DNA of 64,000 nt, from the NCBI RefSeq assembly GCF_011386835.1, contig NC_088798.1, positions 34,534,001-34,598,000 on the forward strand, given 5' to 3'. The stretch comes from Chrysemys picta bellii. Its lineage: Eukaryota. This document shows positions 1 through 56,886 of this stretch, in pieces. The notes below the pieces were generated by a model, which saw only the letters and a list, made by a program, of their open reading frames with translations, searched no databases and was not told the origin of the DNA. Numbering within the stretch: the first letter of the stretch is position 1; every line of letters starts with the position of its first letter. Position numbers and translations under genes: made by a program.

Positions 1-1059
1 AAAAAAAAAAAAAAAAAGATTAACAACAAACAAGACATTTCCACAGAAAATTACACCTTTAAAAGAGTCATATGAGTAATTCTGGCCTCAAATTCACAAG
101 CATTTTGACTTTTTAAATAACTGTCTAGAGAAAGTTAACCTGATGATATACATTTTGCATTATGCAACGCTTAGTACCACAACTAAGCGTTGGTGAAGAA
201 GCTCCATTATTCATCACTCATTTGCCTACCTATGCCTTTTGCAAACTAGCATCAGACTTTGCTTCCTCCTAGCAGAATCCTACTTCCTGAGATGTGTGCT
301 GTTGGAGGCCTCATACATATGCTTTTATGTCCAGCAACTGATTCCTAGGTTGTTGTTTTTCTGCTTTATACCTCTACACAGTCCTTTATTAAATCTGTCA
401 AAGTTAATTGTGATTTATTTATGTAACTGGACAGCTGAGAATGGCCTTAGTTCCAGCAATCTCCAGCTGCCAGAACAGCCTTATGGGCTGTCCTCTAGAA
501 CCACAAAGGTGGTATAAATCACTGTGAAGACACCAGATCCCACACCAACTGGAATTCTATCAGACCCAAGAATCAAGCTATCCTCTGGGCAAGCAACAAC
601 AACAACAAAAAACAAAACAAAAACAAAACCACACCACACCCAAAAAACACAAACTAAACCAAATGCTCTGAATCTAGTTCAATCTGGGTTTGGCAGGCTG
701 CCATAGGAAGCAGATTCCAAAGATGGAATTCCTTAACTCAGACAGCCATCCCTAGCTGCTGCCTGTTTAAGCCTAGGAACTGATCGCAAGAGCATCACAG
801 GGGATTGTAATTCCCACAATAAGGTACAGAGTCAACCTTTCAAAGAGCTTTGCCCCAGACCATTCATGGCTACACAGATTACCAACACCGTGAACTGGTA
901 CTAATAAATAAAAGTCAGTACAAAGACTTGGGTTCAAACATTATGTATTCATTGAAGCTTGTTCCACAGCAGGCAAATGCATTCTGCAATAGCAGGAACC
1001 TTCTGGCAGACAAAATATACTATGTTAAGGAGGCTACACTATCTAGAGTAGTCCTAAAC

Positions 1060-1484
1060 CAGTGGTCCCCAACGCGGTGCCCGTGGGTGCCCACCGGGGC
1101 ATTTATGTGCGCCCGCCTAATGCCCAGCAGGGGAGAGAAACCCGGCCCCGCACCTGACGGGGACAGAGAACTCAGGCTGCGGGCGCAGTGTTCTCTGTTC
1201 CTGGCAGGCGCGGGGCCCGCCTAGTGCCCAGCAGGGGAGAGAAGCTGGGGACTCCCGCCTGTTGGGGACAGAGTACTCCGGGGCTGCGGGGCCGGTGTTC
1301 TCTGTCCTCATGGCTTCTCTCTAGCTTCTCTCTTCATTCATATATTATGTAATATTAAATATGATGTTTTCCATATTATTTAATGTACAAATACAAAATA
1401 AGCCTTGAAAAATTGTTGGCGCCCGCTACACTCTTCTGAAAACATGAATGTGCTACTGGCCACAAAAAGGTTGGGGGACCACTA
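1060..1484. mobile_element. hAT-type MITE
   Basis: CAGTGGTCCCCAAC / GTTGGGGGACCACTA termini; 8-bp TSD TCCTAAAC. Confidence 0.85.
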
Positions 1485-2396
1485 TCCTAAACCTTCCTAA
1501 CCCAATGGTATCTATGCAACGATGCTTCAGCAGTCTAGCCTTGCAGTGCGAAGGCATGGATGACTGCTGCAAAGTCTGTATCGCATAGAAATACTTAAAA
1601 TCTCCTGGCTAGCACTAGATGATGAAAGGCACCGCAAGCCACTGCTGATATCTAAAAATTGATAATGAATCTAACAGAATTCGCCAGGCTCCGATTCCCA
1701 TTTGTCAACACACAGCCATTTTATTCTGAACAGCATGTGTCATACAGAGTGTATCCCAAAAGTCCCCCAATCAGTTAAATAGACAAAGAGTGAGAAAGCC
1801 ATGACAGAAGAAAGAAATGCAGAAGTGTGTCCAATTGTTTAAAACCCCCTCAGGTCCAGGGAGCCTTTCAACTGTTCCCTACCATAGTTTGGAGCTACAA
1901 CTAATACACAATACTTCACTTTCAAGCCGGTGGCGGCAGGCAATCGAACCGCTGGAGAAGGGGGCCAGCCCGCCTCAGCAACGCAGGCAGGAGAGCACCC
2001 ACCACCACCAGCATCTGCGGGGAAAACCAAGGGCCGGGGAGGGGGACACAGCACGGGCGGCTGCCACCCACCGGGACCACCCCAAGACGCCAGCGGGCCA
2101 TTCAGGCCCCCGTCAATCATTTCCAACAGGCCCATCAGCGGGGTATCTGGGCTGGGGTCACCCTCCGGGGGAGCGGTCAGGCGGAGCACCACTACCCGGC
2201 CCTGTGGCACAGCCCGCACCTCACCGCAGGCCCCCGGGGGCTCCAGGCCGTTCACCCGGGGTCGAGCTCTGGCCCTCTTAGGCAGAACGAGGGGAGTCGC
2301 TCGGCAGCCTCCGCCCGAGCCCGGCCCGCGGTGCGCACAGACCAGCCGGGCCCTGGCACGGGGCTTGCGGGCGCCTCCCGCTTCCTTCCTACCTAC

Positions 2397-2459
2397 CTCT
2401 GCCGCAGCCGGGGCAGCGGGCTCCGGCCCGCGCCGCGCAGCTCGCCGCGTGGCCACCAT
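2397..2459 (-). CDS. DNTTIP2: DNTTIP2 coding exon 1 (MVATRRAARRGPEPAAPAAAE); the rest of the gene lies left of the window
   Basis: ATG in good Kozak context (GAAGATGG) inside a CpG island; 63 nt exon followed by GAG|GTAGGT donor in phase 0; N-terminus resembles vertebrate MVVTR..; known synteny immediately downstream of GCLM on the same strand. Confidence 0.75.
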
Positions 2460-2560
2460 CTTCCCCCGCGTGCCGGAGTGTGCGCAGCGCCGCGCCCACC
2501 CGCCTCTTCCGGCCCCGGCCGCCGCGGAAAGAGCTCCGGCGGGACACAGCCGCCGCCGCG
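2460..2560 (-). promoter_or_regulatory. DNTTIP2 5'UTR/core promoter in a CpG island (about 1900-2560), with an ETS-type CCGGAAG motif
   Basis: GC/CpG-rich sequence; CTCTTCCGG near 2503 on + (CCGGAAGAG on -). Confidence 0.5.
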
Positions 2561-2647
2561 CAATGTGCTACTGGTAGCAGTTACTGATAAAAGTGCTGCC
2601 TGACGTAGCAAATGCCCACAGGTAGCAGTTTCTTGCACTACAATATG

Positions 2648-3470
2648 TAGGGTTACTATAAAAAAAAAAAACCCAAAAAAACAAAAAGAGGACACTCCAG
2701 GGGCCCCAACCCCGCCCCTTCCCCAAAGTCCCTGCCCTAACTCCGCCCCCTCCCCTGAACGCTCCGCCCCCGCTCCTTCCCCTCACCTGCTTCCCACGAA
2801 TCAAATGTTCGGGGCGGGAAACCTGAGGCAGGCAGGCAGCAGGTAGGCTGGGGCTGGGGTGCGGGCGTGGCCCAGTCCAGCCCCCCCCCCGGCTGAGCAG
2901 CTTCCTCTGGCGGCTGGTCCCAGCGTCTCCGGCCTGGCTCAGTTCTGGTCGAGCGGCTCCGGCCCTGGTTCCGGTTGAGCGGCTCCGGCCTGGCCCTGGC
3001 CGAGTGGTGCCGGCAGGCCTGCGGCCGAGCACCCCAGTCCCAGCGGCTCCGGCTCGGCTCGGCTCGGCCCTGGTTCTGGCCGAGCGACTCCGGCCCGGCC
3101 CTGGCCGAGTGGTGCCGGCCGGCGGCCGAGCACCCCCAGCGGCTCCAGCCCGGTTTGGGCCCCGGTTCCAGCCGAACGGCTCTGGCCCGGCCCCAGCCCT
3201 GGGCGAGCGGCGCTGGCCGGTGGGCGAGCACCTCCGACTCGGCTCGGGCCCTGGTTCTGTCTGAACAGCTCCGGCCCCGGCCCTGGCCGAGCAGCGCCGG
3301 CTGGCAGCCGAGCACCGCCAGCCCCAGCGGCTCTGGCTCCGGACCCAAGCCCCATGACCCCTCCCTATTTTCCCGGACATGTCCGGCTTTTTGGAATTTC
3401 CTCCCGGACGGGGATTTGAGGACCAAAAAGCTGGACATGTCTGGGAAAATCTGGACGTATGGTAACCCTA
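2648..3470. mobile_element. hAT (Blackjack-like TAGGG..CCCTA) non-autonomous element with GC-rich internal tandem repeats
   Basis: TAGGGTTAC / GTAACCCTA termini; flanking duplication CAATATG. Confidence 0.8.
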
Positions 3471-3578
3471 CAATATGTGTGAAATTGCTACGCATAGCAA
3501 TGTGCTATTGGTAGCAGTTATTCATACGTATAGCTTGTGAGAAACTGCTGCTGTAAAAAAATGCTACTTGATGTAGCA

Positions 3579-6160
3579 ACCTAAACCTCTCTTGCTGCAA
3601 TTTAAGCCCATTGCTTCTTGTCCTATCCTCAGAGGTTAAGGAGAACAATTCTTCTCCCTCTTCCTTGTGACAACCTTTTACGTACTTGAAAACTGTTATG
3701 TTTCAATCTTCCCTCATAGGTCATGTTTTCTAGACCATTTGTTGGTGTTGTTGCTCTTGGACTTTATCCAGTTTGTCCACATTTTCCTGAAATGTGGCAC
3801 CAAGAACTGGACACAATTCTCCAGTTGAGGCCTAATCAGTGCAGAGCAGAATAATTACTTCTTGTGCCTTGCTTACAATACTCTGCTAATACATCCCAGA
3901 ATCATAGTTGCCAACTCTGTCGGTGCTCCAGGGCTAGAGCACCCATGGGGAAAAATTAGTGGGTGCTCTGCACCCAACAGCAGCCAAGCTCCCCTCATCC
4001 GCCGCCCCACCTCCTCTTCCTCCCATGAGTGTGCCGCGTACCCGCTCCTCCGCCCACCTCCCAAGCGTTTCCCGCCTGGCGTTAGCATGCTCCGGGAAGG
4101 GGGAGAGGAGCGGGAATGTGGTGCGCTCAGGGGAGGAGGCGGGGCCAGGGTGGGGATTTGGGTAAGGGGTTGGAATGGGGGTGGGGAAGGGATGAGAAGA
4201 GGTGTGGCAAGGGTGGGGCCTCATGGAAGGGATGGAGTGGGGGTGTGGCCGGGGGCAAAGGGGGGGGTCGAGCAACCATGGGAAAGAGGGGAAGTCGTCG
4301 CCTATGCCCAGAATGATGTTCAGTTATTTTACAGCAGCGTTACACTGTTTACTCATATTCAGCTTGTGGTCCACTATGACCCCTAGATCTCTTTCCGCAG
4401 TACTCCTTCCTAGGAAGTCATTTCCTGTTTTGTATGCATGCAGCTGATTGTTCCTTCCTAAGTGGAGTACTTTGCATTAGTCCTTATTGAATTTTATCCT
4501 ATTTACTTCAGACTATTTCTCCAGTTTGTCCAGATCATTTTGAATTTTCATCCTATCCTCCCAAGCACTTGCAATCCCTTCCAGCTTGGTATCATCCACA
4601 AACATTATAAGTGTACTCTCTATGCCATTATTTAAATAATTGATTAAGATTTTGAATAGAAACATATCCAGAACCAATCCCTGCAGAACCGCACTTGTTA
4701 TGCCCTTCCAGCCTGACTGTGAACCACTGATAACTACTCTCTGGGAGCTGTTTTCCAACCAGTTTTGCACCCACCTTATTGAAGTTCCATCTAGGTTGCA
4801 TTTCCCTAGTTTATTTATGAGACGGTCATGGGAGACAGTATCAAAAACTTTACTAACGGCAAGATAGGTCATGTCGACCACTTCCTCACATCCACAAGGC
4901 TTCTTACCCTGTCAAAGAAAACTATCAGGTTGGTTTGACATGATTTGTTCTGGCAAATCCATGCTGGCTGTTACGTATCACCTTATTTTATTCTAGATGT
5001 TTGCAAACTGATTGCTTTATTATTTGCTCCATTATCTTTCCAGGTACACAAGTTAAGATGACTGGTCTGTAATTCCCCATGTTGTCCTTATTTCCCTTTT
5101 TATAGATGGGTACTATATTTGCCCTTTTCCAGTCTTCTGGAATCTCTCCCATCTTCCATGACTTTTCAAAGATAATTGCTAATGGCTAAGATATCTCCTC
5201 AGTCAGCTCCTTGAGTATTCTAGGACACATTTCATCAGGCCTTGGTGACTTGAAGACATCTAATTTGTATAAGTAATTTTTAACTTGTTCTTTTCCTATT
5301 TTTGCCTCTAGTCCTACCTCATTTTCACTATGGCATTCACTGTTGGGCATCCAATCGCCACCAACCTTCTTGGAGAAAACAGAAACAAAAAAGCCATTAA
5401 GCACCTCTTCCATTTTCACATTTTCTGTTATTGTTTTCCCCCCTCGTTGAGTAACAGGCCTACCCTGTCCTTGGTTTTCCTCTTGCTTCTAATGTATTTT
5501 AAGAATGTTTTCTTGTTTCCCTTTATGTCTCGAGCTAGTTTGATCTCACTGTGTGCCTTGGCCTTTCTAATTTTGTCCCTACATATTTGTGTTATTTGTT
5601 TATATTTATCCTTTGTAATTTATCCTAATTTCCACTTTTTGTAGGACTCTTTTGATTTTTAGATCATTGAAGATCTCCTGGTTAAGTCAGGGTGGTCTCT
5701 TGCCATACTTCCTATCTTTCCTACACACTGATATACTTTGCTCTTGCGCCCTTAATAATGTCTCTTTGAAAAACTGCCAGTGGTCTTCAGTTGCTTTTCC
5801 CCTTAGAATTGCTTCCCCTGGGAACTTACCTTCTAACTCCCTGAGTTTGCTAAAGTCTGCCTTCTTGAAATACATTGTCTTTATTTTGCTGTTCTCCCTC
5901 CTACCGTTCCCTAGAATCATGAACTCTATAATTTCATGATCACTGTCACCCAAGCTGCCTTCTGCTTTCAAATTCTCAACCAGTTCCTCACTATTTGTCA
6001 AAATCAAATCTAGAACAGCCTCTTCCCTAGTACCTTTCTCCACCTTCTGAAATAATTTTTTTCTCTAATACATTCCAAAAACTTGTTGGATAATCTGTGC
6101 CCTGCTGTGTTATTTTCTCAACAGATGTCTGGGTAGTTGAAGTCCCCCATCACCACCAAG
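3579..6160 (-). mobile_element. CR1 LINE ORF2 fragment (endonuclease to RT), degenerate, interrupted by a hAT MITE
   Basis: [31 protein letters not shown] and FVDDTKL motifs across broken frames; 3' tail missing. Confidence 0.9.
3903..4306. mobile_element. hAT-type MITE inside CR1
   Basis: CATAG..CTATG termini; 8-bp TSD CCCAGAAT. Confidence 0.85.
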
Positions 6161-6870
6161 AATATAAGGTTGTTCTTATTTGCTGACTTGTCCTAATTTG
6201 CTAAAAACTGCTATCAGATGTAGCTAATTCCTACAGATAGCAGTTTCTCACACTCTAAGGTGTGGGAAACTGCTACCTGTAGGAATTTGCTATCTGTAGT
6301 AGGTAGTGAATTGTTAAAATTAGCAGTTACTGGTACATATGGTTGTTTTTATGTGCCTACTTGTCCTAATTTGCTAAAACTTGACAGTGGTGTGGGATGG
6401 AAGCATAAAGAGTTCAGCTTCCAAACAACCCTGCCTGGATTCATTGTGGTGGGACACGGGACGTGTGGAGGATAATTTAAAATCTTAATTTCGTTAGGGT
6501 TCACCTTCAATATACTTCTATGCTGGTACAATCTCTGACCATTACAGTTCATCAACTCAGCAGGTAAGCACAGGCAGCAAAGTACCTGTCCTGTTGCCTT
6601 CTGATCTCAGAGGGTAGATTCCAGCAAACTCCTGGAGTAATCTCTCATTGGAGATATGGTGCATGTTTCTCATACCCCATTTTGTGTTTCTTACCATCAT
6701 GCCATCTTTATTTAATTAATTTATTTATTTATTTATTGCAAGTCACATAATTGCAGTATAAGCAGTAGTCCTCCATGCTCTCTGAAAAAAATCATTAAAA
6801 TGTTGTCAAATGATGGTTACATTCTGACCAAAACTGTAAGTAGAAATCTTGATTTATTCATTACTGTCAA

Positions 6871-7509
6871 TTACTCCAAAAAATTAACTTGTTTGAAATA
6901 CTTTTCCATTTTTGGAGGGGTCATCGTTTGGATTGGATCACTGCTTGGAACGTCTGCCAAAAAACAGTCCTCTTCGTCCGTGTCTGTGATCTCCACATTT
7001 ATCACTTGGCTGTTGTGAGGCTTGTGAGATACTTCGCCTCCTATTTCTCCTACCTCTTCTGAGGTGACTTTTTTCATAGTGTCATCCACAGCAGTTTCCA
7101 TTTCCATGTTTTCCTATCATCTGTTTTCAGCAGGTAATGTTGGAGGCTCTTCAAATAGTTTTAAGTGGGAGATACTGTACATAGATCCTAAAAGTTTCCC
7201 TGAGATGGTTTCTAATTTAACTCTTTTACCCTCCACAGCGGTGACTTTGTATGGTCCACGGTAGGTGGGTTGCAGCAGCCCTCCCTTTCTTCTTTTCCTT
7301 CTCGCATGCAGTAACATGACACTGTCCCCAACCTCGAATGTTATTTTCCCATGTTTACGAGTCTTAGTTTTGGCATACTGTATCTGTTGTTTTTCTTGTG
7401 CTTTAGAAATATTAGTAAGAGCCAGTTCAATGTCAGCAGCATGTCTAGATTCCATATTTATGATGTACTCTTTGTAGAATTGTTCACTGAGTTCCTCAAA
7501 ATCTGTTGG
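6871..7509 (-). pseudogene. Ginger/GIN integrase exon D with GPY/F module (FEVGDSV..YRGPYKV); the frame continues past TGA-TAG into an acidic tail
   Basis: aag acceptor at 7510; ORFs 7117-7551 and 6871-7107 are in the same frame. Confidence 0.8.
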
Positions 7510-7603
7510 CTTTGTAAACAAATGGAGGAGTTGTGTTTGTAAAATGAACAATCACAGAATGACATATGCACCTGAAAGCTGATGGTTCTTTAAAGACACC
7601 TAC

Positions 7604-7769
7604 CATGTCATTTTCTGAGACTTGGTCTGGGAATGTTGCTTCAAAGCCATACAGTAGTTGAAAGAGAGACATTTTGGTTGTGTTTGGTTTTGATTGCAAA
7701 GGAAATAAAATGTCACCAAGAAATTCATTCCAATTACTCCCAGTGTCATCAACCAACTTCTGCAATGCT
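7604..7769 (-). pseudogene. Ginger/GIN integrase exon C (RALQKLVDD..WNEFL..LLYGFEATFP)
   Basis: ttacag acceptor in phase 2 completes the Arg codon; GTAGGT donor. Confidence 0.85.
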
Positions 7770-8011
7770 CTGTAACAAATGGTGATGGATTATTTGTGGA
7801 GGGAGGGGAAAGGACTGTCTTTACTGAGAGAAATTGTACACAATCCAAAAGGCGTAAAGAGGCCATCCTAGTTTATTGGTACAATTACTTTTTCTTGAAA
7901 TAAAAGACAAGTAGACTTGCAATGTACTAAAATTTTGAAGCAGTTTGTAGCTTCTGTCATAGTGCATTCTCCTTGCTATTAACATTGTAATTTTCCCAGC
8001 TGTAAAATTAC

Positions 8012-8118
8012 CTTTTGATGGATTTGTTTGTGTTTTCAGCCAATCCATTGGTTTGTGGGTGGTATGGGCTGGTGAAGCTACGCTGTATTCCCAATTTTTT
8101 GCAAATGTCTAGGTTATA
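8012..8118 (-). pseudogene. Ginger/GIN integrase exon B (YNLDICKKLGIQRSFTSPYHPQTNGLAENTNKSIK)
   Basis: tttcag acceptor and GTAATT donor (phase 2); YHPQTNGLAE catalytic E motif. Confidence 0.9.
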
Positions 8119-8388
8119 CTGAAAGAAAAAAAATTATGCCATAAACTTACCTTTGGACAGGTTTGGTGGGTAAAAAGAACCCAAAGAATAAAATGTTATA
8201 GCAACCCGGCTGGGGTGACCACCAGTAATCCTTGCAAAGTTGAGTGGGAGTTCATAGAAACTTGTCAGCAAAAATGCCCATAAAGAAAAACTCACCAGGG
8301 CAATGAAGCCCATGTTCACTGTCAGCTATCTGTGATCTGAAAGTGGTTGAAAACATAGTCGAAAACAACCTCAGAAAAAAGTATTTAC

Positions 8389-8624
8389 CTCATTATTGAA
8401 TTCTGGCCCACGATCTGTCAGTATACGCTGTGGACATCCAAGTTGCTGTATAATTTTGTACATTTTTTTTTTGACACCTCAGACACCAACTTATTTCAAA
8501 GTGGAAATGCTTCAACCCATCTTGTAAGATAGTATGTGGCTGTCAGTATATACCAGTATCCCTCCTTTGTTGCCGGTAATGGCCCTATTAAATCCATTCC
8601 CACCAATTCAGAGGGCCGACTGAC
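8389..8624 (-). pseudogene. Ginger/GIN integrase exon A (..LVGMDLIGPLP..WVEAFPL*..ILTDRGPEFNNE)
   Basis: cag acceptor and GTAAAT donor; first two catalytic D residues; one TGA stop and a frameshift in the A10 run near 8463-8472. Confidence 0.85.
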
Positions 8625-8919
8625 CTGTATGCAAGGGAACTGGTTGGAGTCATACTTTGGATTTCTCTTATTTCATATTCTCAATAAGCCCAGGAAAAGT
8701 ATGAGGGTAGACTAAGATTCATTCGGGTGTTTAGGCTCCAGCTTTGGTGGAATTGGCCATACTGCACCCTAAAGGCTCAGGAACAAAGAGGCACATAAGA
8801 ACAAAATATCATTTATTTATTAAAATGTCTTGACAGCAGGGTGTATAACTCATGTTTTTAGAATTTTTGTGGTTGTCAAGGTATCTTGGGGTTGTAGATG
8901 TGTGTTCATTATGTTTTGA

Positions 8920-9190
8920 AAGCCAAAACTATGAATGGGTTCAACAAAGAATTAGATCGGTCCCTCAGGATAGGTGCATCAGCTATTAGCCAAGATAATC
9001 AGGGATGCAGCTCCATGCTCTGCGTCTCCCTAAACCGTCCTCTTACTGCCAGATGCTGGGAGTGGACAATGGGATGGTTCACTCAGTGATTGCCTGTTCT
9101 GTTCATTCCCTTAGAAGCACCTGGCACTGGCCGCTGCCAGAAGACAGGATACTGGACTAGACGGACTATTTGTCTGACCCACTATGGCAG
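8920..9190 (+). mobile_element. CR1 3'-end fragment
   Basis: CR1-type 3'UTR sequence ending ...ggcagttctaacgttc. Confidence 0.6.
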
Positions 9191-9523
9191 TTCTAACGTT
9201 CAGCAAAAATTACAATAGATTTTTGCCTTTGAGAAAGATGTTATAGGAGATAGTATACTGCCTTTATTGAATATTTGAGAATAAAGTTGTACACACAAGC
9301 AGTGGATTGAGAGGCAAAAGAGTGGAAGTCAGATGATCCAACAGAATAAACATCTGCTCTAAAAATAAGAAGAAAAAATTAGAATTAAAAATTCAGGGAA
9401 TCCCAGCAGCAGATAAGACAACTTGGGAAACTGCTGTGAGACTCTATGCAATCAGATACAGTGATAAGGGATTCTTTGTTTCTGAGGGTATATATGTAAA
9501 ATGTTTCACTGAATTAAGTCTCA

Positions 9524-9739
9524 GGGATTATCTACCCTGGCAAATTAAAGTGCTCTAGCTTGCTGGCTCAGGGGTGTGAAAAATCCTTCCCCCTGAGCGC
9601 AGCAAATTTGAGTGCTTTGAAGTGCTTGTGTGGACAGGCTCGGCTCCCAATGCTTGGAGCTAATCCCCTCGTCGAGGTGGATTACCAGAAGCATTGGCAC
9701 CTGCGGCAGCGCTTTGAACTTTGTAGTGTAGACATAGCC
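9524..9739. mobile_element. Harbinger-type MITE
   Basis: Right end TAGTGTAGACATAGCC followed by TTA; degenerate left TIR. Confidence 0.65.
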
Positions 9740-10584
9740 TTAGTGGGTTAGATCAGACAAAGAGGAGCAGCATTGACTAGGCATTGAGATGCCTGTGCCT
9801 TTAAGAACTCAGCCCTGGGAAGCCTATGCTGAGAGGTGCTGTCTGTGAGAGGGGAACTAAAAATGCCCCTTTGCCCCACACCATTTTTGCAAACTCTGGT
9901 GTCTCAGTCCCACTGGGGTAACTGTTAGTCCCTCTCCCCCTGCCTGTGCCTCACCCAAGCTTAACTCCTGCTTCTCCCCCCCCAGCCCTGATTTTGCCCT
10001 TCGACCCCTCTCCTAATCCTGCATCCAGCTGCTTGACACTCCTGACCAGTCAATTTTTGCCCCTGATCAGATCTTGACCACCCCCCTCATCCATTTTGTC
10101 CCCTTTGCCATCCCTGTAAAATGCAGTCAGCAGATTACTATGCACAGTTAGGGCAGGGTGAAGAGTGGTGGCTTCAGCAGATGAACTGAGCATGCTCAGT
10201 ACACCCTAAGTAGCACATTCCTAGAGGGAGCAATTTAATACACTGGAGATGTTGGGACACCTGGGGGCTTGGCCCCACCTCTGCCGACTACTCAGTGTCA
10301 GGGTGGGCCCATCCTCATGGAGTCTGGGGCCATATGGGAGCCTTAATCCGCAGCTGGGGGACTCCTGTTCACACAGATCACCTCAGCATCGTTCAGCACA
10401 TTTCAGGCGCCCCTGGCTGCAGGGAAAAGCCCAAGCAGGGGAGCCCCGAGTGGCCAGCGCCTGTGGTGCTGGTTTGCAAAGCCGCTCGCAGGGTGTTTGG
10501 AGTAGCCCCACAGCTGGTTCCTGATGGCCGGGGACTGGGCCTCTGAAGGTTCTACGGCAGCCCGCTCAGCCCAGCCAACGGGTG

Positions 10585-12372
10585 TCATAGAATCATAGAA
10601 AATTAGGGTTGGAAGAGACCTGAGGTGGTCATCTAGTCCAACCCCCTGCTCAAAGCAGGACCAACCCCAACTAAATCATCCCAGCCAGGGCTTTGTCAAG
10701 CCAGGCCTTAAAAACCTCTAAGAATGGAGATTCCACCACCTCCCTAGGTAACCCATTCCAGGGCTTCACCACCCTTCTAGTAAAATAGTGTTTCCTAATA
10801 TCCAACCTAGACCTCCCCCACTGCAACTTGAGACCATTACTCCTTGTTCTGCTATTGCCACCACAGAGAACAGCTGAGCTCCATCCTCTTTGGAATAAAG
10901 GCTGCTATCAAATCCTCCCTTCTCTTCTGCAGACTAAACAAGTCCAGTTCCCTCAGCCGCTCCTTGTAAGTCATGTGCCTCAGCCCCCTGATAATTTTCA
11001 TCAGTGCCGGGTCTACAATGGCACCAGTGAGCCAGGCCCATGCTCAGAAGGGGTCCCAGCCTTCTCTGCTTGCACTGCACCCTGAGACAGGGTGACCAGG
11101 TAGCAACTGTGAAAAAACAGAACAGGGGGTGGGGGGTAATAGGCACCTATATAAGAAAAAGTCCCCAAAAAGGGACTGTCCCTTTAAAAACAGGACATCT
11201 GGTTACCCTAGCCCTGAGACCCCACCAGCCCACTGGCTCCCCCCACCCTGCCCACCACTTGCTCCTCTCAGCCTGCCTGAAGAGGGCTCCTTTTCACTCC
11301 CTGGCTCTCTGCCCCCCTGGCCAGATCCCAGTGCACCTCCGGCTCCAGGCAGTCTCTGCTTTCCACCACCCGGGGCCCCACCTGACTCCCTAGAACTGAG
11401 CTGCTTGGGACTGGTGCAGAAGCCTGGCCAGTCTCAGCCAGTTGGGGGTGGGGGGAGACAGCATGGGAAGGCTTGGCTGGGCCCCTCCAGGCAAGTGGGT
11501 CCTGAGGGAGGCTGGCTGGGGCAGGCCCTGGCCTGGCTGATCGCACCACTCCCAGGGTCAGAGCGATTCCCTGGCTCGGGAACTACACTTGCAGCTCAGC
11601 CTGGCAGACAGTTGCCTCCCAGCAGGGTCGGTGAATGTGGCTGGGAGGCAGGGCATAGGGGATGGGGTGCTGGGCAGGGGTAGTGTTGTGCAGGGTGCTG
11701 TGCATTTGTGACAGGATCTGGGGGGGGGGGGCGCAGGGCAGAGTGGGTCCAGGGGGGGCTCTGTCCATAGGGTATCAGAGGGCTGTTCCAGTGTTGGATG
11801 GGGGGGGCGCGCCTCTGTGGCATGGCATATGCCCACCCGCAAGGGGAAGGGGCATGCTGGCAGCACAGGGCTGCGCAGGCCACTGTCCGTATGGCAGCTG
11901 CCAGTTTGTAAATAGTGCCCTCGCACTGGGTTGGGCGGAGGAGGTCTGCTCATGCCACGCTCCACTGCCCCCATGGGGGCCCACAAAAGGTTAATCCGAC
12001 CCTGATTTTCATTGCCCTCTGCTGGACTCTCTCCAATTTGTCCACATCCTTTCTGTAGTGGGGGGCCCAAAACTGGACGCAATACTCAAGATGTGGCCTC
12101 ACCAGCGAGGGGAATAATCACTTCCCTCAATCTGCTGGCAATGCTTCTACTCATGCATCCCAATATACCATTAACTGCCCTGGCAGCAAGGGCACACTGC
12201 TGACTCATATCCAGCTTCTCATCCACTGTAATCCCCAGCTCCTTTTCTGCAGAACTGCAGCTTTGCCAGTCGGTCCCCAGCCTGTAGTGGTGCATGGGAT
12301 TCTTTTGTCCTAAGTGCAGGACTCTGCACTTGTCCTTGTTGAACCTCATCAGATTTCTTTTGTCCCAATCCA
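10585..12372 (-). mobile_element. CR1 3' fragment split by a nested hAT element
   Basis: CATAGAAT tail repeat at 10585; RT C-terminal peptide RFNKDKCRVLHLG; sequence resumes after 12004. Confidence 0.85.
11002..12004. mobile_element. hAT-type element inside CR1, containing a smaller CAGGGTGACC..GGTTACCCTA MITE (about 11088-11210)
   Basis: 8-bp TSD ATTTTCAT at 10994-11001 and 12005-12012. Confidence 0.8.
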
Positions 12373-12949
12373 TGTTATCCAAGTACTCATGTTATAGGAG
12401 GAGAATTGACTTGCAGTATATGTCTGCACGGCCAGCAGAAACCCCATAGCGAGCCTCAGAGCCAGCAGGTAGTGCCAGGGTCTCGCTAGTGTCTCCTCAC
12501 TGCACTAGAACACCTGGGGGCAGCTGAGCAGAGTTCTGCGTGTCTAGGGCAGATGTCCCCTTATGGTGCACGTAGCCTAGGTACAGTAATTTTTACCTTA
12601 CAGCATCTTCTCCATTCCTCTAAGCCTAGCACAATCATTAGACTCCCTTGAGGAGCTGGTTATTCCTCTGCCTTTAGCATTAAAGCAAATCTAGAAATAA
12701 CCCCACATGTAACCTGAGTTCCATTCTGAGCTCACACACCAATACTCTTCGTCTACAATGCCACCAGCGATTTGACAGAACAGGTAGCACTGTTGGAAGG
12801 AGAAGAGGTTAGCAGTGACTAGATGGGAGTGTAGCAGTCAGGCAGAAGTGTACAGGACATGAAGAGCTAGCAAGTTACTAGGTCAAAAGTATGGGTTAAG
12901 CTTTGTGGCTAAAATTCGCCCCACGAGTTCTCGAACTCATACTCTAGTT

Positions 12950-13172
12950 CCGGGGTTCTTAAACTGGGGGTCGGGACCCCCTGGGGGGGGGTCACAAGGT
13001 TAGTAGATGGGGGTCATGAGCTGTCTGCCTCTACCCCAAACCCCACTTTTCATCCAGCATTTATAATGGTGTTAAATAGATAAACACATTTTTTTAATTT
13101 ATAAGGGGGGGGTCGCACTCAGAAGCTTGCTGTGTGAAAGGGGTCACCAGTACAAAAGTCTGAGAATCACTG
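12950..13172. mobile_element. hAT-type MITE
   Basis: 8-bp TSD CTCTAGTT on both sides. Confidence 0.8.
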
Positions 13173-13269
13173 CTCTAGTTAGTATTCTAGCATGCTGACT
13201 GCTATTTATGACAACTTGTTTGGGAAAGTTCTAGCTAGAAACCAATAATCCACCACTAGAGACTCAAAC

Positions 13270-16200
13270 AACTCATTTTATTTCAACACATTCAATTAAT
13301 AGGGAGCATTCAGCACTATAAATATTTTGTTAAAACAAATGCTTTGTTTTGTATTTGTTTCATACATTGCACCTCTAGCTAAACATTTTACCAACAAAAG
13401 AAAGCCAAGAAGAGAGGATTAAATAAAACCATGCAGGATTTAAAAAAAATTACACATTTTGCCTAATGATCTAAAATGACTAAGTCACACATTTTTATTG
13501 CATTTTCCAGAAGGCTTAATTAAGATTCTCCCTTTCACAATCTATTAGTGAAAAAACTTTAAGATTAGCTAGATTAGGCAGCTAATAATAAGGGAACAGT
13601 TAAGTGACCAGTACTAAATTTAATCATAAGCAAGTGTTTCTAGGTTTTTGAGGTGCTAGAAATAGGGCAGAATTTGGCTCAAAAAATCTAACTTGAAAAG
13701 AAAAAAGGTATTCCTGGCTATGTTCCTGGAATGTTGTGCACTACCAGATGGGAGAACAAGTTCAAGTCTCATTCCTAATGTACTACTCCTAGGGATCAGA
13801 TCTGAGAGGCGATTCATAGAGGGGGTGCTGCCTCTGTCACTCAAAATCAATTCCTAGTCAGTTAAAAAAAAAAAAAAAGTGGTGTCAATGTGCTACAAAG
13901 GAAGTTGTCTTGTACTTAGATTTGAAAAAAAAACAACATTTCTCCAAATATATTTGGCAAGATTTATATAATCTGTATTTTAGTAACAAACATTCAATTT
14001 ATGAAAGGGAATCTTTAGTAAGTGCAATACAGGGACTAGATAAAATTAATGAAATCTTGCAATTATCTTTGTCATTATTTGATCACAGGGATAAAACCAT
14101 GCCCACACCAAGCAGTCTAGTTTCAACATTAAAAACAAAATTGTACATAATTATGTATCTTCATTTAACCTAGTAATTTATTTTATTACACTGAAAAGCT
14201 TTTGAGAAAACCAAACAATATACAGCACAAAAACTACAATTTAACCTTTAAATTGTACAAATTAAAGAGGCTAGGCTACACCCCAGGATTAAATACATAA
14301 GCAATAGATCTAAACTTGCATAAAGCACACTTTCTGCAGAAAATAAGTTACATACAGTTAAAGGGTGCTTTGATTCCCCCCCTCCTCCTCCCTTCCCACA
14401 AACAGTTCATGTAGACCAATGACAGTTGCAGTGATACAACCCTGGAACTCCAACTCCCAAAAAGAAGAAATGAATGAGATTAGGAGGGAAATGGCACTAT
14501 CATGGTGGTTTAGGTTGAAGAATTTTGACTTGCTGTTACTTGTAAGTGGGATCTAGCATTCAGATTGGTGAAGGGCATACATGTTCTAAGTACCACCTAC
14601 TCCCCACTACGTCAATACACCGAGGCATATCTTGAGTGATCTGATGTTCACCATACATAATATATCATTTAATGATGGAAAAGCAGAGTCATTCCTGCTT
14701 GCCTCCCAGAGATACCAATGCAAGCAATGCTATAGAGAAATTTAGAATTCATACAAAGCATACACAAAAATGCAAATTTCAAAGAAGGACATATACTAGT
14801 AATACAGTAATGCCAATTTTCAAAATTTTCACTTCTTCAAATCTTAACGTTTATATTCCTCCTCTAGAAAGGAATTTCTGTCTCTCCTCCAACTTTAATT
14901 GCTATTTTGGTTAAATACAGTAATCACTAATCAGGTGATGACTTGAAAAAAAAATCACTGCCTGGTTGTAATACTGCTTGTAGAGCTAACAAATTACCAT
15001 GCCTATTCCAATTCATACAAAAGTTATTTCTCTCTCCACAAAAAAATTATTAATATGGTTCCCAATTAGGAACTAAACTGCTAGTGCAATCTGTGCACTA
15101 TTTAACTATGCTTAGCTCAATTGTCAGTTTTAATGTTTTTAGTCTTGTAGATTTAAACATATACATGTCAAGACAAGGATTCACGTTTACAACAGTCAGA
15201 CTGTGGTATGGTTTGGACACAAAGGAGAAATAAAATGATCACAAGTAGATGCTATACATCAGTACCAACCAGTAAGGAGCATACTTGGCACATAAGTTTT
15301 AAATAAGGTTCATTTTTTAAATTTTATACACAGATGACCCTCCATGGCCAAAATTCACTTTCTTCTGTCAAAAGAAAATGTTGCTAAAATTTTTGCCTCT
15401 GCATTATCAGTGCCCATTCTCTTCCTTGTCCACCCCATATTTATCAAGTAATTGAATAAGTCTAGAGTATTTCCTAGATATTTTAGTCACATATCTAAAT
15501 ATTTAAGGATTCAGAAGTTTACTACCAAACAACATTTATCAGTGTACCAAGTCTTTGAAAATAACGAAGACTAACTCAGTGGAATGGATTAAAAAGTTTA
15601 TACATCTGACCATGCAGAAAACATTGTGATTTTTCTATGACAAAAATACACAAATAGTTAGTGTAAATTCATTCCTTTAAACTACAAGCTCAAAGTCTAC
15701 ATAAAACTAAGTTAACAATTACCAGACTATGGCTTGATCCTGTTCCCACTGAAATCAATAGCAAAACACTTATTGACTTCACTGGACTACAGTGAGCTAC
15801 TGATAAGAATTGCACTGAAGAGATCTATACCATCTAAATCACATTAGGTAACAAAATGTTTTTGCAGTAGACAGACTGTATTTTTAAAATGCAAAAGTCT
15901 GTAGATATGTTCCAGGTCAGAAAAGAAACCAATAGCCTGTCTTAGGTCCAGCATTAGTTTCCTTTAGGTTTAGAAGCCAACAGTACTGCACATGTGAAGC
16001 TGGCAACACAAGGGAACAAGAACACAGGTTTAATGCTTGTTTGGTATTCTGTTCTCTGGATGACACCTGAACATCAGTTAATTCCCCAGGTAACCCAAAA
16101 TTAACAGACATTATATCTTTTGTACATGATTATACAATGTACATCCCATCAACATTTATATACTTATCTATTCTGATTTTAGTCACATTCTTAAAGTATC

Positions 16201-17056
16201 TGTGGCTCTTGAGCATCTAGTACATAGATTAGGACAAAACCAGGCACATTCTGACTACAGTTTAATTTGTTTTTGACCATGTAATTCCAGATCTTAGTTT
16301 AAATACACTATACAGTACATTTCACAATTTAAGACAGAAAATGGCATCACTCCTGTCCACATGCTAAACACAGTAAGAGCAATGTGGTACAGAAACAAAC
16401 AGGATGAGCTAATAGAATTAAAAAAATATTTTTTTTTAAATACAAAGGCCTTTTTGTACCAAAATGAAAAGAAAACCAGGTTTTCATTCATGTGAATTAA
16501 GCAGCTTACTTGCTATACCAATTAATCAGATTCCAATTAGTCTGTTTACTTAAGAGAATTTTCCTATGGATAAAAAAAACAAAGAAAACTACTTAAAAGT
16601 TACTCAACTGCTCAAATTCTATATAGCTACCTAACTAGTAGGAATAAGCACTTCAGAAGAAATTCAGAATGTTAAGTTTCTTTCTTGAAAACAAAAATAT
16701 ATAAATTTCTATATATTACCTTGATGGCAGCCAAAATATACTTAGTGATAATTTTATATTAGTCATAAAGAAAATATTTTGAATTTCTTTAGATAATCTC
16801 AATTAGAAAACAGTTTAATCAACACAAAATATTTCATATATTAGTAAACTGGTCTCTATGTTAGGAAAGAAATGTGCAGTATTTGACAATGCTGTCAGAG
16901 CACTGTGCCTCTGGACAACCCAGGCCTTACTGTCACCACTTTTGGTCTTCATTATAACTTGTGATGGTTTTCACCTCCGTGCAAAGTTTTTATGCAAAAA
17001 AGGTGGTATATTTCCAAAGCATTAAGACAGCAGGCTGTTGTCAAAAGAAAAATGTA
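13270..17056 (-). other. Probable long AT-rich GCLM 3'UTR; 3' end uncertain (several AATAAA candidates on -, e.g. near 14180, 13495, 13278)
   Basis: AT-rich, nearly repeat-free stretch following the stop codon. Confidence 0.35.
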
Positions 17057-17226
17057 TTAAGAGACATTTCTTTTCGCTTGCAAGATATAGCCTTTCGATT
17101 TGATAATTCCTCTGGTTTGAACAATGACTGAATACCGGAGAAGCCACAAGGGAGTCCATTCATGTGCTTGACTGTTCCGGATACTTTCCTGAAGAGCTTC
17201 TTGGAAACTTGCCTCACAAAGCAATT
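17057..17226 (-). CDS. GCLM: GCLM exon 7, terminal (ELLCEASFQEALQES...KGYILQAKRNVS*)
   Basis: 170 nt ending in TAA; the seven exons sum to 822 nt = 273 aa + stop. Confidence 0.97.
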
Positions 17227-17394
17227 CTAAAATTAGAAACAGATATTTACATTTTAACCAAACAAAAATGTAAATAATTCCTTTAACTGCAATTAGTGAG
17301 AGGTGATCTTTTTGTTTAAAATGTGTTAAATTGTAACTCAATAAGCAATGTGACAGCATGAAGTATATGGTCACATGGCTGGATAGATATAGAT

Positions 17395-17723
17395 CAGGGG
17401 TCGGCAACGTTCGGCACGCGGCTCGCCAGGGTAAGCACCCTGGCGGGCCGGGCCAGTTTTATTTACCTGCTTTCGTGGCAGGTTCGGCCGATCGCGGCTC
17501 CCACTGGCCGCGGTTCGCCATCCCGGGCCAATGGAGGCGGCGAGAAGCGGCGCGGGCGAGCGATGTGCTGGCCGCGGCTTCTCACCGCCCCCATTGGCCC
17601 GGGACGGCGAACCGCGGCCAGTGGGGGCCGCGATCGGCCGAACCTGCCACGTCAGCAGGTAAATAAAACTGGCCCGGCCCACCAGGGTGCTTACCCTGGC
17701 GAGCCGATCGTTGCCGACCCCTG
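17395..17723. mobile_element. Palindromic hAT MITE in GCLM intron 6
   Basis: CAGGGGTCGGCAAC / GTTGCCGACCCCTG TIRs with long internal inverted arms; 8-bp TSD ATATAGAT. Confidence 0.9.
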
Positions 17724-18229
17724 ATATAGATACACACACACGCACCTGAAGTTTCACGAGGCACAAACTCAAAAGTTAGAGAATTTATAGTATAAGAAAG
17801 TTTCAGACAATACTTCTTTCCTGCTCTAAGTAATCAACTGAACTGGCTTTACATACAGTGTTGATTGAAATGACATTAATCATTGAAACCATTAGTTGAA
17901 GATACCAAAAATAAGATCAAGAGGTAGCTATATATTTTGAAGGAGAGAATTAAATGACAGTCTCTTGTTTGACATTGATTTTAGTTTAAAAGATCTAGAT
18001 TCATATTTAGAAAAATGTAATATGTTTGACCAAATCCAGCAAGGTACTGAGCATTCTCAGTTCCCACTAAAGTCACAGTTAAGGGTGCTCAACACCTTGC
18101 AGACTGGGCCCTTAATAGTTATAAGTCTAAAGAGATAAGGTCATGTCCTGCACTGTAAATGTTTCCATTATCCTATAACTAAGGCACAATGTCCCTTATT
18201 AGCCAGCATAAGATTGTAGGGTAGGGAAC

Positions 18230-19097
18230 TGTCATAACTAGAAAGGGAAGGGTAACAACCCTCCCGTATACAATACTATAAAATCCCTCCTGGCCAGAGG
18301 CTCCAAAATCCTTTTACCTATAAAGGGTTAAGAAGCTCAGGTAACCTGGGTGACACCTGACCCAAAGGACCAATAAGGGGAAAAGATACTTTCAAATTGG
18401 GGGGTGGGGGGAAAAGAGGCTTTTGTTTGTGTGCTCTTTGTTTTTGGGTGTGTTCACTCTTGGGACTAAGAGGGACCAGACATCAATCCATGTTCTCCAA
18501 ATCTTTCTGCACAAGTCTCTCATATTTCAAACTTGTAAGTAACAGCCAGGCAAGGCGTGTTAGTTTTATCTTTGTTTTCTCAACTTGTAAATGTTCCTTT
18601 TCCTAGAGGGTTTACCTCTGTTTGCTGTAACTTTGAACCTAAGGCTAGAGGGAGTTCCTCTGGGTTCTTTGAATCTGATTACCCTGTAAAGTTATTTTCC
18701 ATCCTGATTTTACAGAGACGAATTTTACTTTTTCTTTTAATAAAATTCTTCTTTTAAGAACCTGATTGATTTTTCATTGTTTTAAGATCCAAGGTTTTGG
18801 ATCTGTGTTCACCAGGACTATTGCTGAAGGGATTACCAAGCCTTCCCAGGGAAAGGGGTGTAGGAGCTTGGGGGGATATTTCTCAAGCCTACCCAGCAAA
18901 AGGGATGTAAGGGCTTGGGGCGATATTTTGCGGGAAGAGGAACTCCAAGTGGTCCTTTCCCTGTTTCTTGTTAAAGCACTTGGTGGTGGCAGAGTATTAA
19001 AATTTAACCTAAGCTGGCAGAAATAAGCTTAAGGGGTCTTTAATGCGGGTCCCCACATCTGTACCCTAAAGTTCAGAGTGGGGAGGGAACCTTGACA
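18230..19097 (+). mobile_element. Solo LTR in GCLM intron 6
   Basis: TGTCA..TGACA ends; 5-bp TSD GGAAC; internal AATAAA near 18738 on +. Confidence 0.85.
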
Positions 19098-51318: not shown

Positions 51319-51895
51319 ATGCAGAGCTCTCCAGCAGTGATGGCCATGCAGTCTGTGAATAGAAAGAGAGCCCCAGCATGGACTGATCGTGAAGTCTTGG
51401 ATCTCATCGCTGTGTGGGGCGATGAGTCCGTGCTTTCCGAGCTGCGATCCAAAAGAAGGAATGCAAAGATCTACGAGAAGATCTCTAAAGACATGGCAGA
51501 GAGAGGATACAGCCGGGATGCAACGCAGTGCCGCGTGAAAATCAAGGAGCTGAGACAAGGCTACCAGAAGACCAAAGAGGCAAACGGACGCTCCGGATCC
51601 CATCCCCAGACATCCCGTTTCTACGAGGCACTGCATTCCATCCTCGGTGCTGCCGCCACCACTACCCCACCAGTGACCGTGGACTCTGAGGATGGGATAC
51701 TGTCCACGGCCGGTTCCTCAGACATGTTAGGGGACGGGGAAGATGAGGAAGGAGATGAGGAGGGCGAGGCAGTTGGCAGCTCTCACAACGCTGATTTCCC
51801 CGACAGCCAGGATCTCTTCATCACCCTTACAGAGATCCCCTACGAAGCGTCCCCAGCCATTACCCCGGACACAGAATCTGGTGAAGGATCAGCCA
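51319..51895 (+). CDS. Harbinger Myb/SANT-like DNA-binding protein, exon 1
   Basis: WTDREVLDLIAVW...RDATQCRVKIKELRQGY trihelix motif followed by an acidic tract; donor A|GTAAGT at 51895/6 (phase 1). Confidence 0.9.
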
Positions 51896-52102
51896 GTAAG
51901 TGTTGTAAACATCTAAACATTTATTTTTAACAAAACAGGAATATTAACAATTAAAAGAATGGGTTGTTCATGATTAGTGTGCCCTAGGCGCTTAACGGTT
52001 TAGTAAGGGGCAGTGCAAGTTTTGAAAAGAAATCTAGCAATGTCCGGTTTTCAGTGATTGTCCTGCACAAGCCGCTCTACTGTGTATTCCCTGCTACTGC
52101 AG

Positions 52103-52399
52103 CTACAGTAAAATGCGGTCTATATGTGCGGGGATAGAGCAGTAATCCTCCTGGGACATCTCGATGAAGCTCTCCTGGAGGTAACTTGAAAGCCGTTGCA
52201 TGAGGTTCTTGGGGAGAGCGGCCTTATTGGGTCCTCCGAAGTACGACACGTTGCCGCGCCACGAGATTATCAGGTACTCGGGGATCATTGCTCTGCACAG
52301 CAGGGCGGCATACGGCCCTGGTCTTTGGAGGCTTTCCCGGAGCATTCTCTCTTTGTCGCTCTCGGAGATCCTCATCAGGGTGATGTCGGCCATGGTGAC
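52103..52399 (-). CDS. Candidate third Harbinger gene (96-99 aa, BEN-domain-like), nested antisense in the Myb-gene intron
   Basis: Open ORF; Kozak GTCACCATGG; cag acceptor at 52401-52400 with CTAAC branch point at 52428-24; upstream ATG|GTAAGC donor at 52670-52668 joins in frame; AATAAA on - at 51925-51920; BEN-like residue pattern seen by eye only. Confidence 0.5.
   Translation of the reverse strand, partial: VTMADITLMRISESDKERMLRESLQRPGPYAALLCRAMIPEYLIISWRGNVSYFGGPNKAALPKNLMQRLSSYLQESFIEMSQEDYCSIPAHIDRILL

Positions 52400-56490: not shown

Positions 56491-56886
<396 letters not shown>

What the first reader, a model, noticed from the sequence alone, without database searches (positions are those of the whole stretch)
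6161..8810. Intron-containing Gypsy-like integrase (Ginger/GIN DNA transposon) fossil that the ORF track fragments
Seen in sequence: four minus-strand exons (8624-8389, 8118-8012, 7769-7604, 7509->) with GT-AG introns of 270, 242 and 94 nt and compatible phases. Splicing gives GMD..LTD-x35-E (LTDRGPEFNNE|YNL..HPQTNGLAE), exactly D,D(35)E, followed by a GPY/F module. No RT, RNase H, gag or LTR sequence lies nearby, and related inverted repeats flank it. Established: LTR retrotransposon integrases lack introns, whereas Ginger/GIN transposons and the domesticated GIN1/GIN2 genes have them. Inference: this is a dead copy (TGA, frameshift, TGA-TAG) of a Ginger-like family once active in this lineage. 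Such elements are mostly described from invertebrates, and this locus does not match the GIN1 or GIN2 synteny as I recall it.
Basis: partly seen in the sequence, partly recalled or inferred. Interest (0 to 1): 0.72.

Follow-up and report, generated by a model that had tools for sequence, protein, structure and literature searches.

The report
Dead turtle Ginger1 DNA transposon

Summary
Confirmed in substance. Four minus-strand exons with GT-AG introns of 270, 242 and 94 nt (phases 0, 2, 0) give D,D(35)E plus GPY. The gene is broken by a TGA, a frameshift and TGA-TAG. Relatives are 24 named proteins from 12 turtle genera, several loci per species, then teleost and axolotl proteins. Across these proteins the architecture is YPYY-like, H2C2, DDE, GPY, Ulp1, PHD, which is Ginger1. 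In a tree the copy sits in a clade (99/95) with 0 of 16 RT-bearing integrases.

Corrections:
(1) The element is larger than reported. A fifth (PHD) exon start lies at 6781-6732. A 35-bp TGT-starting arm at 10242 is inverted to an arm ending ACA at 6261, giving candidate TIRs about 4 kb apart; the TSD is unresolved.
(2) The N-terminal and Ulp1 exons are missing from the window.
(3) 6161 is a CR1 LINE junction, so a non-LTR RT is nearby.
(4) The 22-nt inverted repeat near 8800 is not significant.

Ginger1 relics in turtles are already reported, but I found no description of this family. GIN1 and GIN2 could not be placed in the tree.

The parts
10208..10242 (-). Candidate left terminal inverted repeat: 35-bp arm starting TGT
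   Evidence: Not in the training set; scores 30.7 bits with a matrix from three other arms; best score in 100 shuffled windows 22.3. Flank ccag. That it is the element's end is inferred.
8625..10207 (-). Interval where the promoter and YPYY/H2C2 exons would lie; no coding trace; holds nested repeats (9517-9602 recurs at 62532-62616)
   Evidence: HMM and frameshift-aware searches at null level; self-blast
8389..8624 (-). Exon A: first catalytic D (8594-8592) and second D (8415-8413); TGA at 8498-8496; frameshift in A10 run 8472-8463
8119..8388 (-). Intron 1, 270 nt, GT-AG, phase 0
8012..8118 (-). Exon B: catalytic E (8037-8035); Pfam rve_3 E 1.3e-4
7770..8011 (-). Intron 2, 242 nt, GT-AG, phase 2
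7604..7769 (-). Exon C: end of the integrase core
7510..7603 (-). Intron 3, 94 nt, GT-AG, phase 0; the homologous intron is read through as 32 residues in 5 turtle gene models
6934..7509 (-). Exon D: coiled region, GPY (7257-7249), acidic linker; TGA-TAG at 7119-7114; homology to the closest relatives ends at about 6934 (inferred deletion that removed Ulp1)
6732..6781 (-). Start of a fifth exon (PHD finger start, CxxC), acceptor AG at 6783-6782; ends in a (TTTA)n array at 6707-6737
   Evidence: Score 51-78 against shuffled maxima 38-48, 0 of 30 shuffles for each of 3 queries
6261..6295 (-). Candidate right terminal inverted repeat: arm ending ACA at 6261 in the element's sense; flank cctt
6164..6379 (.). 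Subterminal repeat block: 43-nt direct repeats (6164-6206, 6337-6379) and a back-to-back arm pair with an 8-nt spacer (6253-6260); strong hairpin
   Evidence: fold z-score -6.9
3583..6160 (-).
   Evidence: Pfam RVT_1 E 6.6e-9 and Exo_endo_phos_2 E 0.039; junction; the name CR1 is recalled
3476..3582 (.). Further arm copies (3526 minus, 3476 plus) beyond the LINE
2556..2637 (-). Last arm copies (2637, 2589), separated from 3476 by a TIR-bounded insert (about 2645-3475) with a 7-8-bp duplication; they end in the GC-rich promoter-like region

Best explanation
A dead, internally deleted copy of a turtle Ginger1 cut-and-paste DNA transposon. The intact element was transcribed and spliced into one transposase (YPYY-like, H2C2, D,D(35)E, GPY, Ulp1 protease, PHD). 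That enzyme bound the TGT...ACA terminal arms, excised the element as DNA and re-inserted it. No reverse-transcription step is involved, so the introns travel with every copy. This copy later lost the N-terminal exons and the Ulp1 exons, gained stops and a frameshift, and received LINE and MITE insertions. Shown: introns, catalytic triad, multicopy turtle relatives, domain architecture across relatives, tree position apart from RT-bearing integrases, and arms clustered around the gene. Inferred: that the 10242/6261 arms are the termini, the deletions, and the cut-and-paste chemistry (from Bao et al. 2010, PMC2836005, who note that the excision mechanism is unknown).
For: Splicing and DDE. All 16 hits of the exon-D search are turtle (15 named) or unnamed (1), at 63-72% identity. 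Paralogs within a species are 54-60% (Trachemys, Lepidochelys) or 90-94% (three Gopherus evgoodei loci) identical over exon D. Ulp1 (PF02902) and PHD occur in turtle, fish and axolotl relatives. Core identity is 64-77% to turtle-clade proteins covering at least 150 columns, 47-58% to 4 fish-type proteins, and 38-43% to 4 of 4 RT-bearing polyproteins tested. Careful tree of 45 rows: turtle clade 100/99 inside a 21-row clade 99/95 holding 0 of 16 RT-bearing rows. Quick tree of 97 of 164 rows: 30-row clade, SH 97, holding 0 of 40 RT/RNase-H rows. By eye, P0069 in that clade resembles Repbase Ginger1-2_DR, and P0083/P0079 resemble Ginger1-5 to 8_HM. Five strong arms all lie within 2.6-10.2 kb, none in the other 54 kb. 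No LTR-type RT or RNase H in the window.
Against: The TSD is not shown: flanks ccag and cctt match at 2 of 4 positions, and only ccag resembles the CCGG preference. The 10242 arm reads TGTAT, not TGTNR. The arms are about 35 bp, against 40-270 bp for described TIRs, and also occur as back-to-back pairs beyond 6261, so the true ends are uncertain. No single turtle protein among the 24 named carries all domains. No DNA of other copies was available. Deep nodes of the tree are unresolved: other Ulp1/OTU-bearing rows sit in a polytomy with RT rows. The Repbase anchoring is by eye only.
Confidence: 0.88

Rival explanations
1. A decayed duplicate of a domesticated host gene: GIN1, GIN2 or a turtle-specific Ginger-derived gene, spread by segmental duplication rather than transposition.
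For: Relatives are annotated as gene models, some labelled 'Gypsy retrotransposon integrase-like protein 1'. Some cross-species pairs are 97-98% identical, as orthologous loci would be. An unnamed 1.9-kb contig encodes a continuous intron-free ORF (P0012), which suggests transcription. GIN1/GIN2 were not in my trees.
Against: Several divergent loci per genome (54-60% identity). Catalytic residues are decayed differently in different copies (H-D-H, D-G-E). Ulp1/PHD tails and TGT/ACA arms are transposon features. GIN2 lies between OGFOD2 and ABCB9 (PMC3424704), whereas the neighbours here look like DNTTIP2 and GCLM (recalled, not confirmed by a tool). Canonical DDE is not conserved in GIN2 but is intact here.
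Confidence: 0.07
2. A Gypsy (Metaviridae) LTR-retrotransposon integrase fragment whose 'introns' are later insertions or chance GT-AG pairs.
For: Integrase-type Pfam hits. Gmr1 and other Gypsy clades exist in reptiles (PMC3670739). RT-bearing polyproteins are 38-43% identical.
Against: Three independent gaps fall exactly at GT-AG junctions in frame. Exon-skipping gene models in other turtles join at the same positions (P0001, P0026, P0036, P0038). The intron-3 sequence is itself homologous between copies. No LTR, LTR-type RT or RNase H. The tree separates it from all RT-bearing rows.
Confidence: 0.02
3. The coding part is Ginger1, but the palindromic arms belong to a separate non-autonomous element or hairpin repeat that captured or neighbours it, so the real Ginger ends are lost.
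For: Arms occur in an array of alternating orientation (6335, 6261, 6252, 3526, 3476, 2637, 2589), unlike a simple TIR pair. There is no clean TSD, and 1.6 kb between 10242 and exon A has no recognisable Ginger sequence.
Against: The arms start TG(T) like Ginger termini, bracket the gene in inverted orientation, and are absent from the remaining 54 kb.
Confidence: 0.25

Closest known systems
Ginger1 DNA transposons (Bao, Kapitonov and Jurka 2010, PMC2836005), especially Ulp1-bearing Ginger1-5 to 9_HM and zebrafish Ginger1-1_DR/Ginger1-2_DR
   Same: Gypsy-like D,D(35)E transposase with GPY and GT-AG introns; H2C2, Ulp1 and PHD in relatives (Ginger1-9_HM has Ulp1 plus PHD); no RT; TGT...ACA-type ends; multicopy.
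   Different: Amniote host. Relatives' gene models imply more introns than the 0-4 listed for described families. Arms of about 35 bp occur in a back-to-back array. The CCGG TSD is not demonstrable. The turtle proteins form their own clade (100/99), apart from the clade resembling Ginger1-DR.
GIN1 and GIN2 host genes (PMC3424704, PMC2836005)
   Same: Intron-containing Ginger1-derived integrase with GPY/F.
   Different: These are single-copy genes at fixed loci without TIRs; GIN2 lacks a canonical DDE. Here the family is multicopy, decaying, carries Ulp1/PHD and lies at another locus. Not compared by sequence: no named GIN1/GIN2 came from the searches.
Ginger1 relics in turtle, alligator, coelacanth and frog (Frith 2022, PMC9004415)
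   Same: Ginger1 protein fossils in a turtle genome.
   Different: The passages I saw give no family, exon structure, domain content, ends or copy number.
Ginger2/Tdd and IS3EU/GingerRoot
   Same: Integrase-like DDE DNA transposons with TG-type ends.
   Different: Ginger2 lacks GPY/F and YPYY; GingerRoot lacks YPYY, HHCC and GPY and has 6-bp TSDs. GPY is present here.
Gypsy/Metaviridae integrases
   Same: H2C2, D,D(35)E and GPY/F fold; 38-43% core identity.
   Different: Intronless, fused to RT/RNase H, LTR-bounded; none of this applies here.

Membership tests
Ginger1 | Gypsy-like DDE core | tested here: met
   D,D(35)E; Pfam rve_3/rve
Ginger1 | GPY/F motif | tested here: met
   GPY at 7257-7249; weak SH3_Tf2-1 match E 0.06
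Ginger1 | YPYY motif and H2C2 zinc finger | tested here: inconclusive
   Absent from this copy. H2C2 is present in clade relatives (Pfam E 1.6e-19) and a YPYY-like stretch is seen by eye.
Ginger1 | C-terminal Ulp1 or OTU protease, optional PHD | tested here: inconclusive
   PHD exon start present. Ulp1 is absent from this copy but present in turtle, fish and axolotl relatives.
Ginger1 | No RT/RNase H/gag of its own; GT-AG introns allowed | tested here: met
   the nearby RT is a separate LINE; gag was not searched separately
Ginger1 | 40-270 bp TIRs starting TGTNR | tested here: inconclusive
   Inverted arms of about 35 bp at 10242 (TGTAT) and 6261 (TGTGG), 26 of 35 identical by eye; further arms nearby
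Ginger1 | 4-bp TSD, CCGG or CCGT | tested here: inconclusive
   Flanks ccag and cctt, 2 of 4 identical; old copy, ends uncertain
Ginger1 | Dispersed multiple copies | tested here: met
Ginger1 | Phylogenetic grouping with named Ginger1 transposases | tested here: inconclusive
   RT-free clade 99/95; named Repbase sequences could only be compared by eye
GIN1/GIN2 host genes | Single copy at a conserved locus | tested here: not met
   Multicopy relatives; neighbours are not OGFOD2/ABCB9 by my recalled reading of the flanking exons
GIN1/GIN2 host genes | Three universally conserved intron positions (Bao 2010 Fig. 3b) | not testable with these tools
   Figure not held; FASTA supplements unreadable
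Gypsy LTR retrotransposon | Integrase fused to RT/RNase H, LTRs, no introns | tested here: not met
Ginger2/Tdd or IS3EU/GingerRoot | Absence of GPY/F (and YPYY) | tested here: not met
   GPY present; definitions

The most novel reading that the evidence does not exclude
Turtles carry a long-lived Ginger1 lineage, possibly the first characterised multicopy Ginger1 family in an amniote. It amplified in several waves, the latest leaving loci 90-94% identical in one tortoise. It is still transcribed and spliced at some loci and donates its N-terminal exons to host genes (QPRT isoforms in Gopherus). The repeated ACA-(8-9 nt)-TGT junctions at its end would be fossil end-to-end joints from a circular or end-targeting transposition intermediate, which would bear directly on how an integrase-type enzyme excises a DNA element.
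Probability: 0.15. Interest if true: 0.75.

Novelty: new member of a known kind. Interest (0 to 1): 0.42.

Why it matters
Ginger1 links LTR-retrotransposon integrases to DNA transposons and is the proposed source of GIN1 and GIN2. The 21 Repbase Ginger1 rows I saw come from Hydra, Aplysia, aphid, lancelet, entries tagged OT, and zebrafish; none is amniote. A well-preserved, intron-bearing, multicopy turtle family gives material for dating Ginger1 activity in amniotes, testing vertical inheritance against transfer from fish or amphibians, comparing intron positions with GIN1/GIN2, and correcting gene models now mislabelled as GIN1-like. This particular copy is dead and has no evident function.

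Tried and rejected
Looked for the N-terminal YPYY/H2C2 exons between 8625 and 10250, and for Ulp1 between 6940 and 6782, by tblastn, HMM and frameshift-aware alignment: all at shuffle level. An apparent degraded H2C2 reading at 8770-8660 was rejected for that reason. The rest of the PHD finger after 6731 was not found. The 22-nt inverted repeat at 8783-8804/6343-6364 was rejected as the TIR (E 0.27-0.47). Rfam on 1-20000 gave 0 hits. PDB and Pfam searches of flanking host exons gave nothing useful, so the DNTTIP2 and GCLM names are recalled only. The degenerate pattern search is circular because the pattern included the 10242 arm; one search is the valid test. The larger tree did not finish in careful mode (quick tree used); a 45-row careful tree was built instead. 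The Atlas search of P0017 returned only generic integrase clusters. 'Ginger' hits in three turtle genome papers were author names. GingerRoot and Ginger2 were rejected because GPY is present. Cluster membership and accession look-ups for the relatives stayed unchecked. No eukaryotic DNA collection was available, so copy number, TIR and TSD in other copies stayed unchecked.

Full report
OBSERVATION. On the minus strand the three stated introns are real GT-AG intervals of 270, 242 and 94 nt with pyrimidine-rich acceptors, and their phases (0, 2, 0) preserve the frame. An acceptor AG precedes 8624, so exon A is an internal exon. The spliced core has D (8594), D (8415) and E (8037), with 35 residues between the last two, and exon D has GPY at 7257. 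The TGA (8498), the frameshift in a ten-A run (8472-8463) and the TGA-TAG (7119-7114) are as described. The A-run frameshift alone could be a sequencing error, but the other lesions make the copy dead regardless.

THE INTRONS ARE NOT CHANCE. The exon pieces align in order to relatives with the intervening DNA skipped. Among 35 relatives examined (34 named, plus P0012), those scored across each junction were contiguous in 9 of 9, 17 of 17 and 11 of 16 cases. At J1 the 26 unscored rows include one fish model with a gap of -5, and one of the 9 counted has a 2-residue donor read-through. The 5 exceptions at J3 insert 32 residues beginning with V exactly at the junction, as a retained GT intron would, and that insert is homologous to the window's intron 3. 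Other turtle gene models skip whole exons at the same boundaries (P0001, P0026, P0036, P0038). Caveat: these are predicted gene models; only P0012, an unnamed 1.9-kb contig with a continuous ORF, may be a real spliced transcript or a retrocopy.

WHAT THE FAMILY IS. The exon-D search returned 16 proteins among 292 candidates: 15 from named turtles and one unnamed, at 63-72% identity. Three searches together gave 24 named turtle proteins from 12 genera, then teleost proteins (36-48% to P0012) and one axolotl protein. None came from crocodilians, birds or squamates, but these word-indexed searches have limited sensitivity. The host is therefore inferred to be a turtle. Copies are multiple per species: two Lepidochelys olivacea proteins are 60% identical over exon D, two Trachemys proteins 54%, and three Gopherus evgoodei loci 90-94%; the last could include duplications or assembly redundancy. 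Taken together, the relatives carry a YPYY-like stretch, H2C2, rve, GPY, Ulp1 (PF02902) and PHD. No single named turtle protein has all of them, and catalytic residues are decayed differently in different copies. A profile search of 1.84 billion representatives supplied unnamed integrases, which I labelled for RT, RNase H, Ulp1 or OTU. In a careful tree of 45 selected rows the window lies in a turtle clade (100/99), within 17 RT-free fish-type and turtle rows (95/95), within a 21-row clade (99/95) with 0 of 16 RT-bearing rows. A quick tree of 97 of 164 rows agrees, with 0 of 40 RT/RNase-H rows in the clade. Deeper nodes are unresolved. By eye, members of this clade resemble Repbase Ginger1-2_DR and Ginger1-5 to 8_HM as printed in a supplement. 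GIN1 and GIN2 were not retrieved by name and are not in the trees.

(a) A fifth exon start at 6781-6732 matches the PHD exon of relatives, with 0 of 30 shuffles reaching the score for each of 3 queries. (b) The N-terminal exons and the Ulp1 exons are not detectable in the window, so two internal deletions are inferred. (c) A 35-bp arm occurs at 6261 (+), 6252 (-) and 3476 (+). A matrix from these three finds 2637 (-; 31.3 bits) and 10242 (-; 30.7 bits), against a best of 22.3 in 100 shuffled windows, and nothing comparable in the other 54 kb. The 10242 arm begins TGT and is inverted to the arm ending ACA at 6261, bracketing the gene over 3982 bp. These are the best TIR candidates. The flanks (ccag, cctt) do not establish a 4-bp TSD, though ccag is what CCGG decays to. 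(d) Beyond 6261 the arms continue as back-to-back pairs with 8-9-nt spacers (6261/6252, about 3536/3526, 3476/2637 once an insert is removed), forming a strong hairpin (z -6.9). The array is interrupted by a LINE ORF2 fragment from 6160 to about 3583 (Pfam RT E 6.6e-9; CR1 by recall) and by a TIR-bounded insert at about 3475-2645. (e) The 22-nt inverted repeat near 8800 is not significant. (f) The flanking exons read like the last exon of GCLM (about 17200-17057) and the first exon of DNTTIP2 (about 2460), from recall; tools did not confirm this.

MECHANISM. Most likely (0.88) a Ginger1 cut-and-paste element. A spliced integrase-type transposase recognised the terminal arms and moved the element as DNA, so the introns were kept. 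Ulp1 and PHD were accessory; Bao et al. propose a role in SUMO/ubiquitin-linked repair and state that the excision chemistry is unknown. The chemistry is taken from the literature, not shown here. The rivals are a decayed domesticated gene (0.07) and a Gypsy fragment (0.02). A partly independent doubt (0.25) is that the arms belong to a different small element.

LITERATURE SEEN. Bao 2010 (PMC2836005): abstract and parts 1-3 of 4 of the body; its FASTA supplements and Fig. 3b could not be read and bear on the intron and tree comparison. Chalopin 2012 (PMC3424704): passages and section 4. Frith 2022 (PMC9004415): passages, which state that Ginger1 relics are found in alligator, turtle, coelacanth and frog; supplement search empty. 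Kojima 2018 (PMC5753468): passages. PMC10045372: passages and supplement part 11 of 18, with 21 Ginger1 rows, none amniote; the text says 23 entries and the file has 36 mentions, so some were unseen. Hao 2026 (PMC12863088): passages, one section and supplement part 3 of 5, with no turtle Ginger1 in its list. Cerbin 2019 (PMC6839031): parts 1-3 of 7. PMC3670739: passages. Three turtle genome papers: term search only. Marin 2010 was not seen. Seven full-text searches found no description of a turtle Ginger1 family. Current Repbase, Dfam and subscription journals were not searchable, so it may be catalogued there.

VERDICT. It is a new member of a known kind. Presence in turtles was already noted in outline, but the family's structure, multiplicity and ends appear undescribed in what I could search. 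Interest 0.42.

Noticed in passing
proteins P0028, P0029 (Gopherus evgoodei, G. flavomarginatus): Isoforms annotated as nicotinate-nucleotide pyrophosphorylase (QPRT) begin with this family's YPYY-like/H2C2 region (65% identical over 136 aa to P0017): possible exon donation to a host gene in two tortoise species, or a gene-model fusion.
   Followed up: partly
protein P0026 (Pelodiscus LOC102456264): 616-aa model with H2C2, GPY, Ulp1 and PHD but skipping all DDE exons; a candidate exapted or alternatively spliced derivative.
   Followed up: no
proteins P0021, P0058, P0059, P0068: Fish-type Ginger cores joined to unrelated C-termini (finTRIM67 isoform in Cololabis; a Flavoprotein domain in P0059): more possible transposase-host fusions or annotation artefacts.
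   Followed up: no
window 6164-6379, 3476-3582, 2556-2637: Three back-to-back arm junctions (ACA, 8-9-nt spacer, TGT-like) with different spacers; unexplained.
   Followed up: partly
window 42179-43783 (-): Uninterrupted 534-codon frame with no Pfam match; it looks like a DNA-transposon transposase (Chapaev3-like by recall) and may be young.
   Followed up: no
window 51202-55425: Convergent Myb/SANT (51202-51930, +) and DDE_Tnp_4 (54115-55425, -) frames: a largely intact PIF/Harbinger element.
   Followed up: partly
window 56491-56886 (-): Isolated histone H2A reading frame (Pfam E 3.6e-18) with a few substitutions: an orphan or processed copy.
   Followed up: no
window 60409-60891 (-): GIY-YIG endonuclease fragment (E 1.5e-6), probably from a Penelope-like element (recalled).
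   Followed up: no
window 17387-17731: Near-perfect hairpin MITE: 134-nt arms 94% complementary, with an apparent direct duplication at its ends.
   Followed up: no
window about 39650, 24070-23860, 17200-17057 (-) and about 2460 (-): Exons that read like GCLM and the first exon of DNTTIP2 (recalled). The Ginger fossil is intergenic, and its last arms end about 95 bp upstream of the second gene's apparent start codon in a GC-rich region.
   Followed up: partly
window 2645-3475 and about 3905-4310: TIR-bounded inserts: the first has a 7-8-bp duplication and an internal GC-rich tandem array of about 26-bp period; the second lies inside the LINE fragment.
   Followed up: partly
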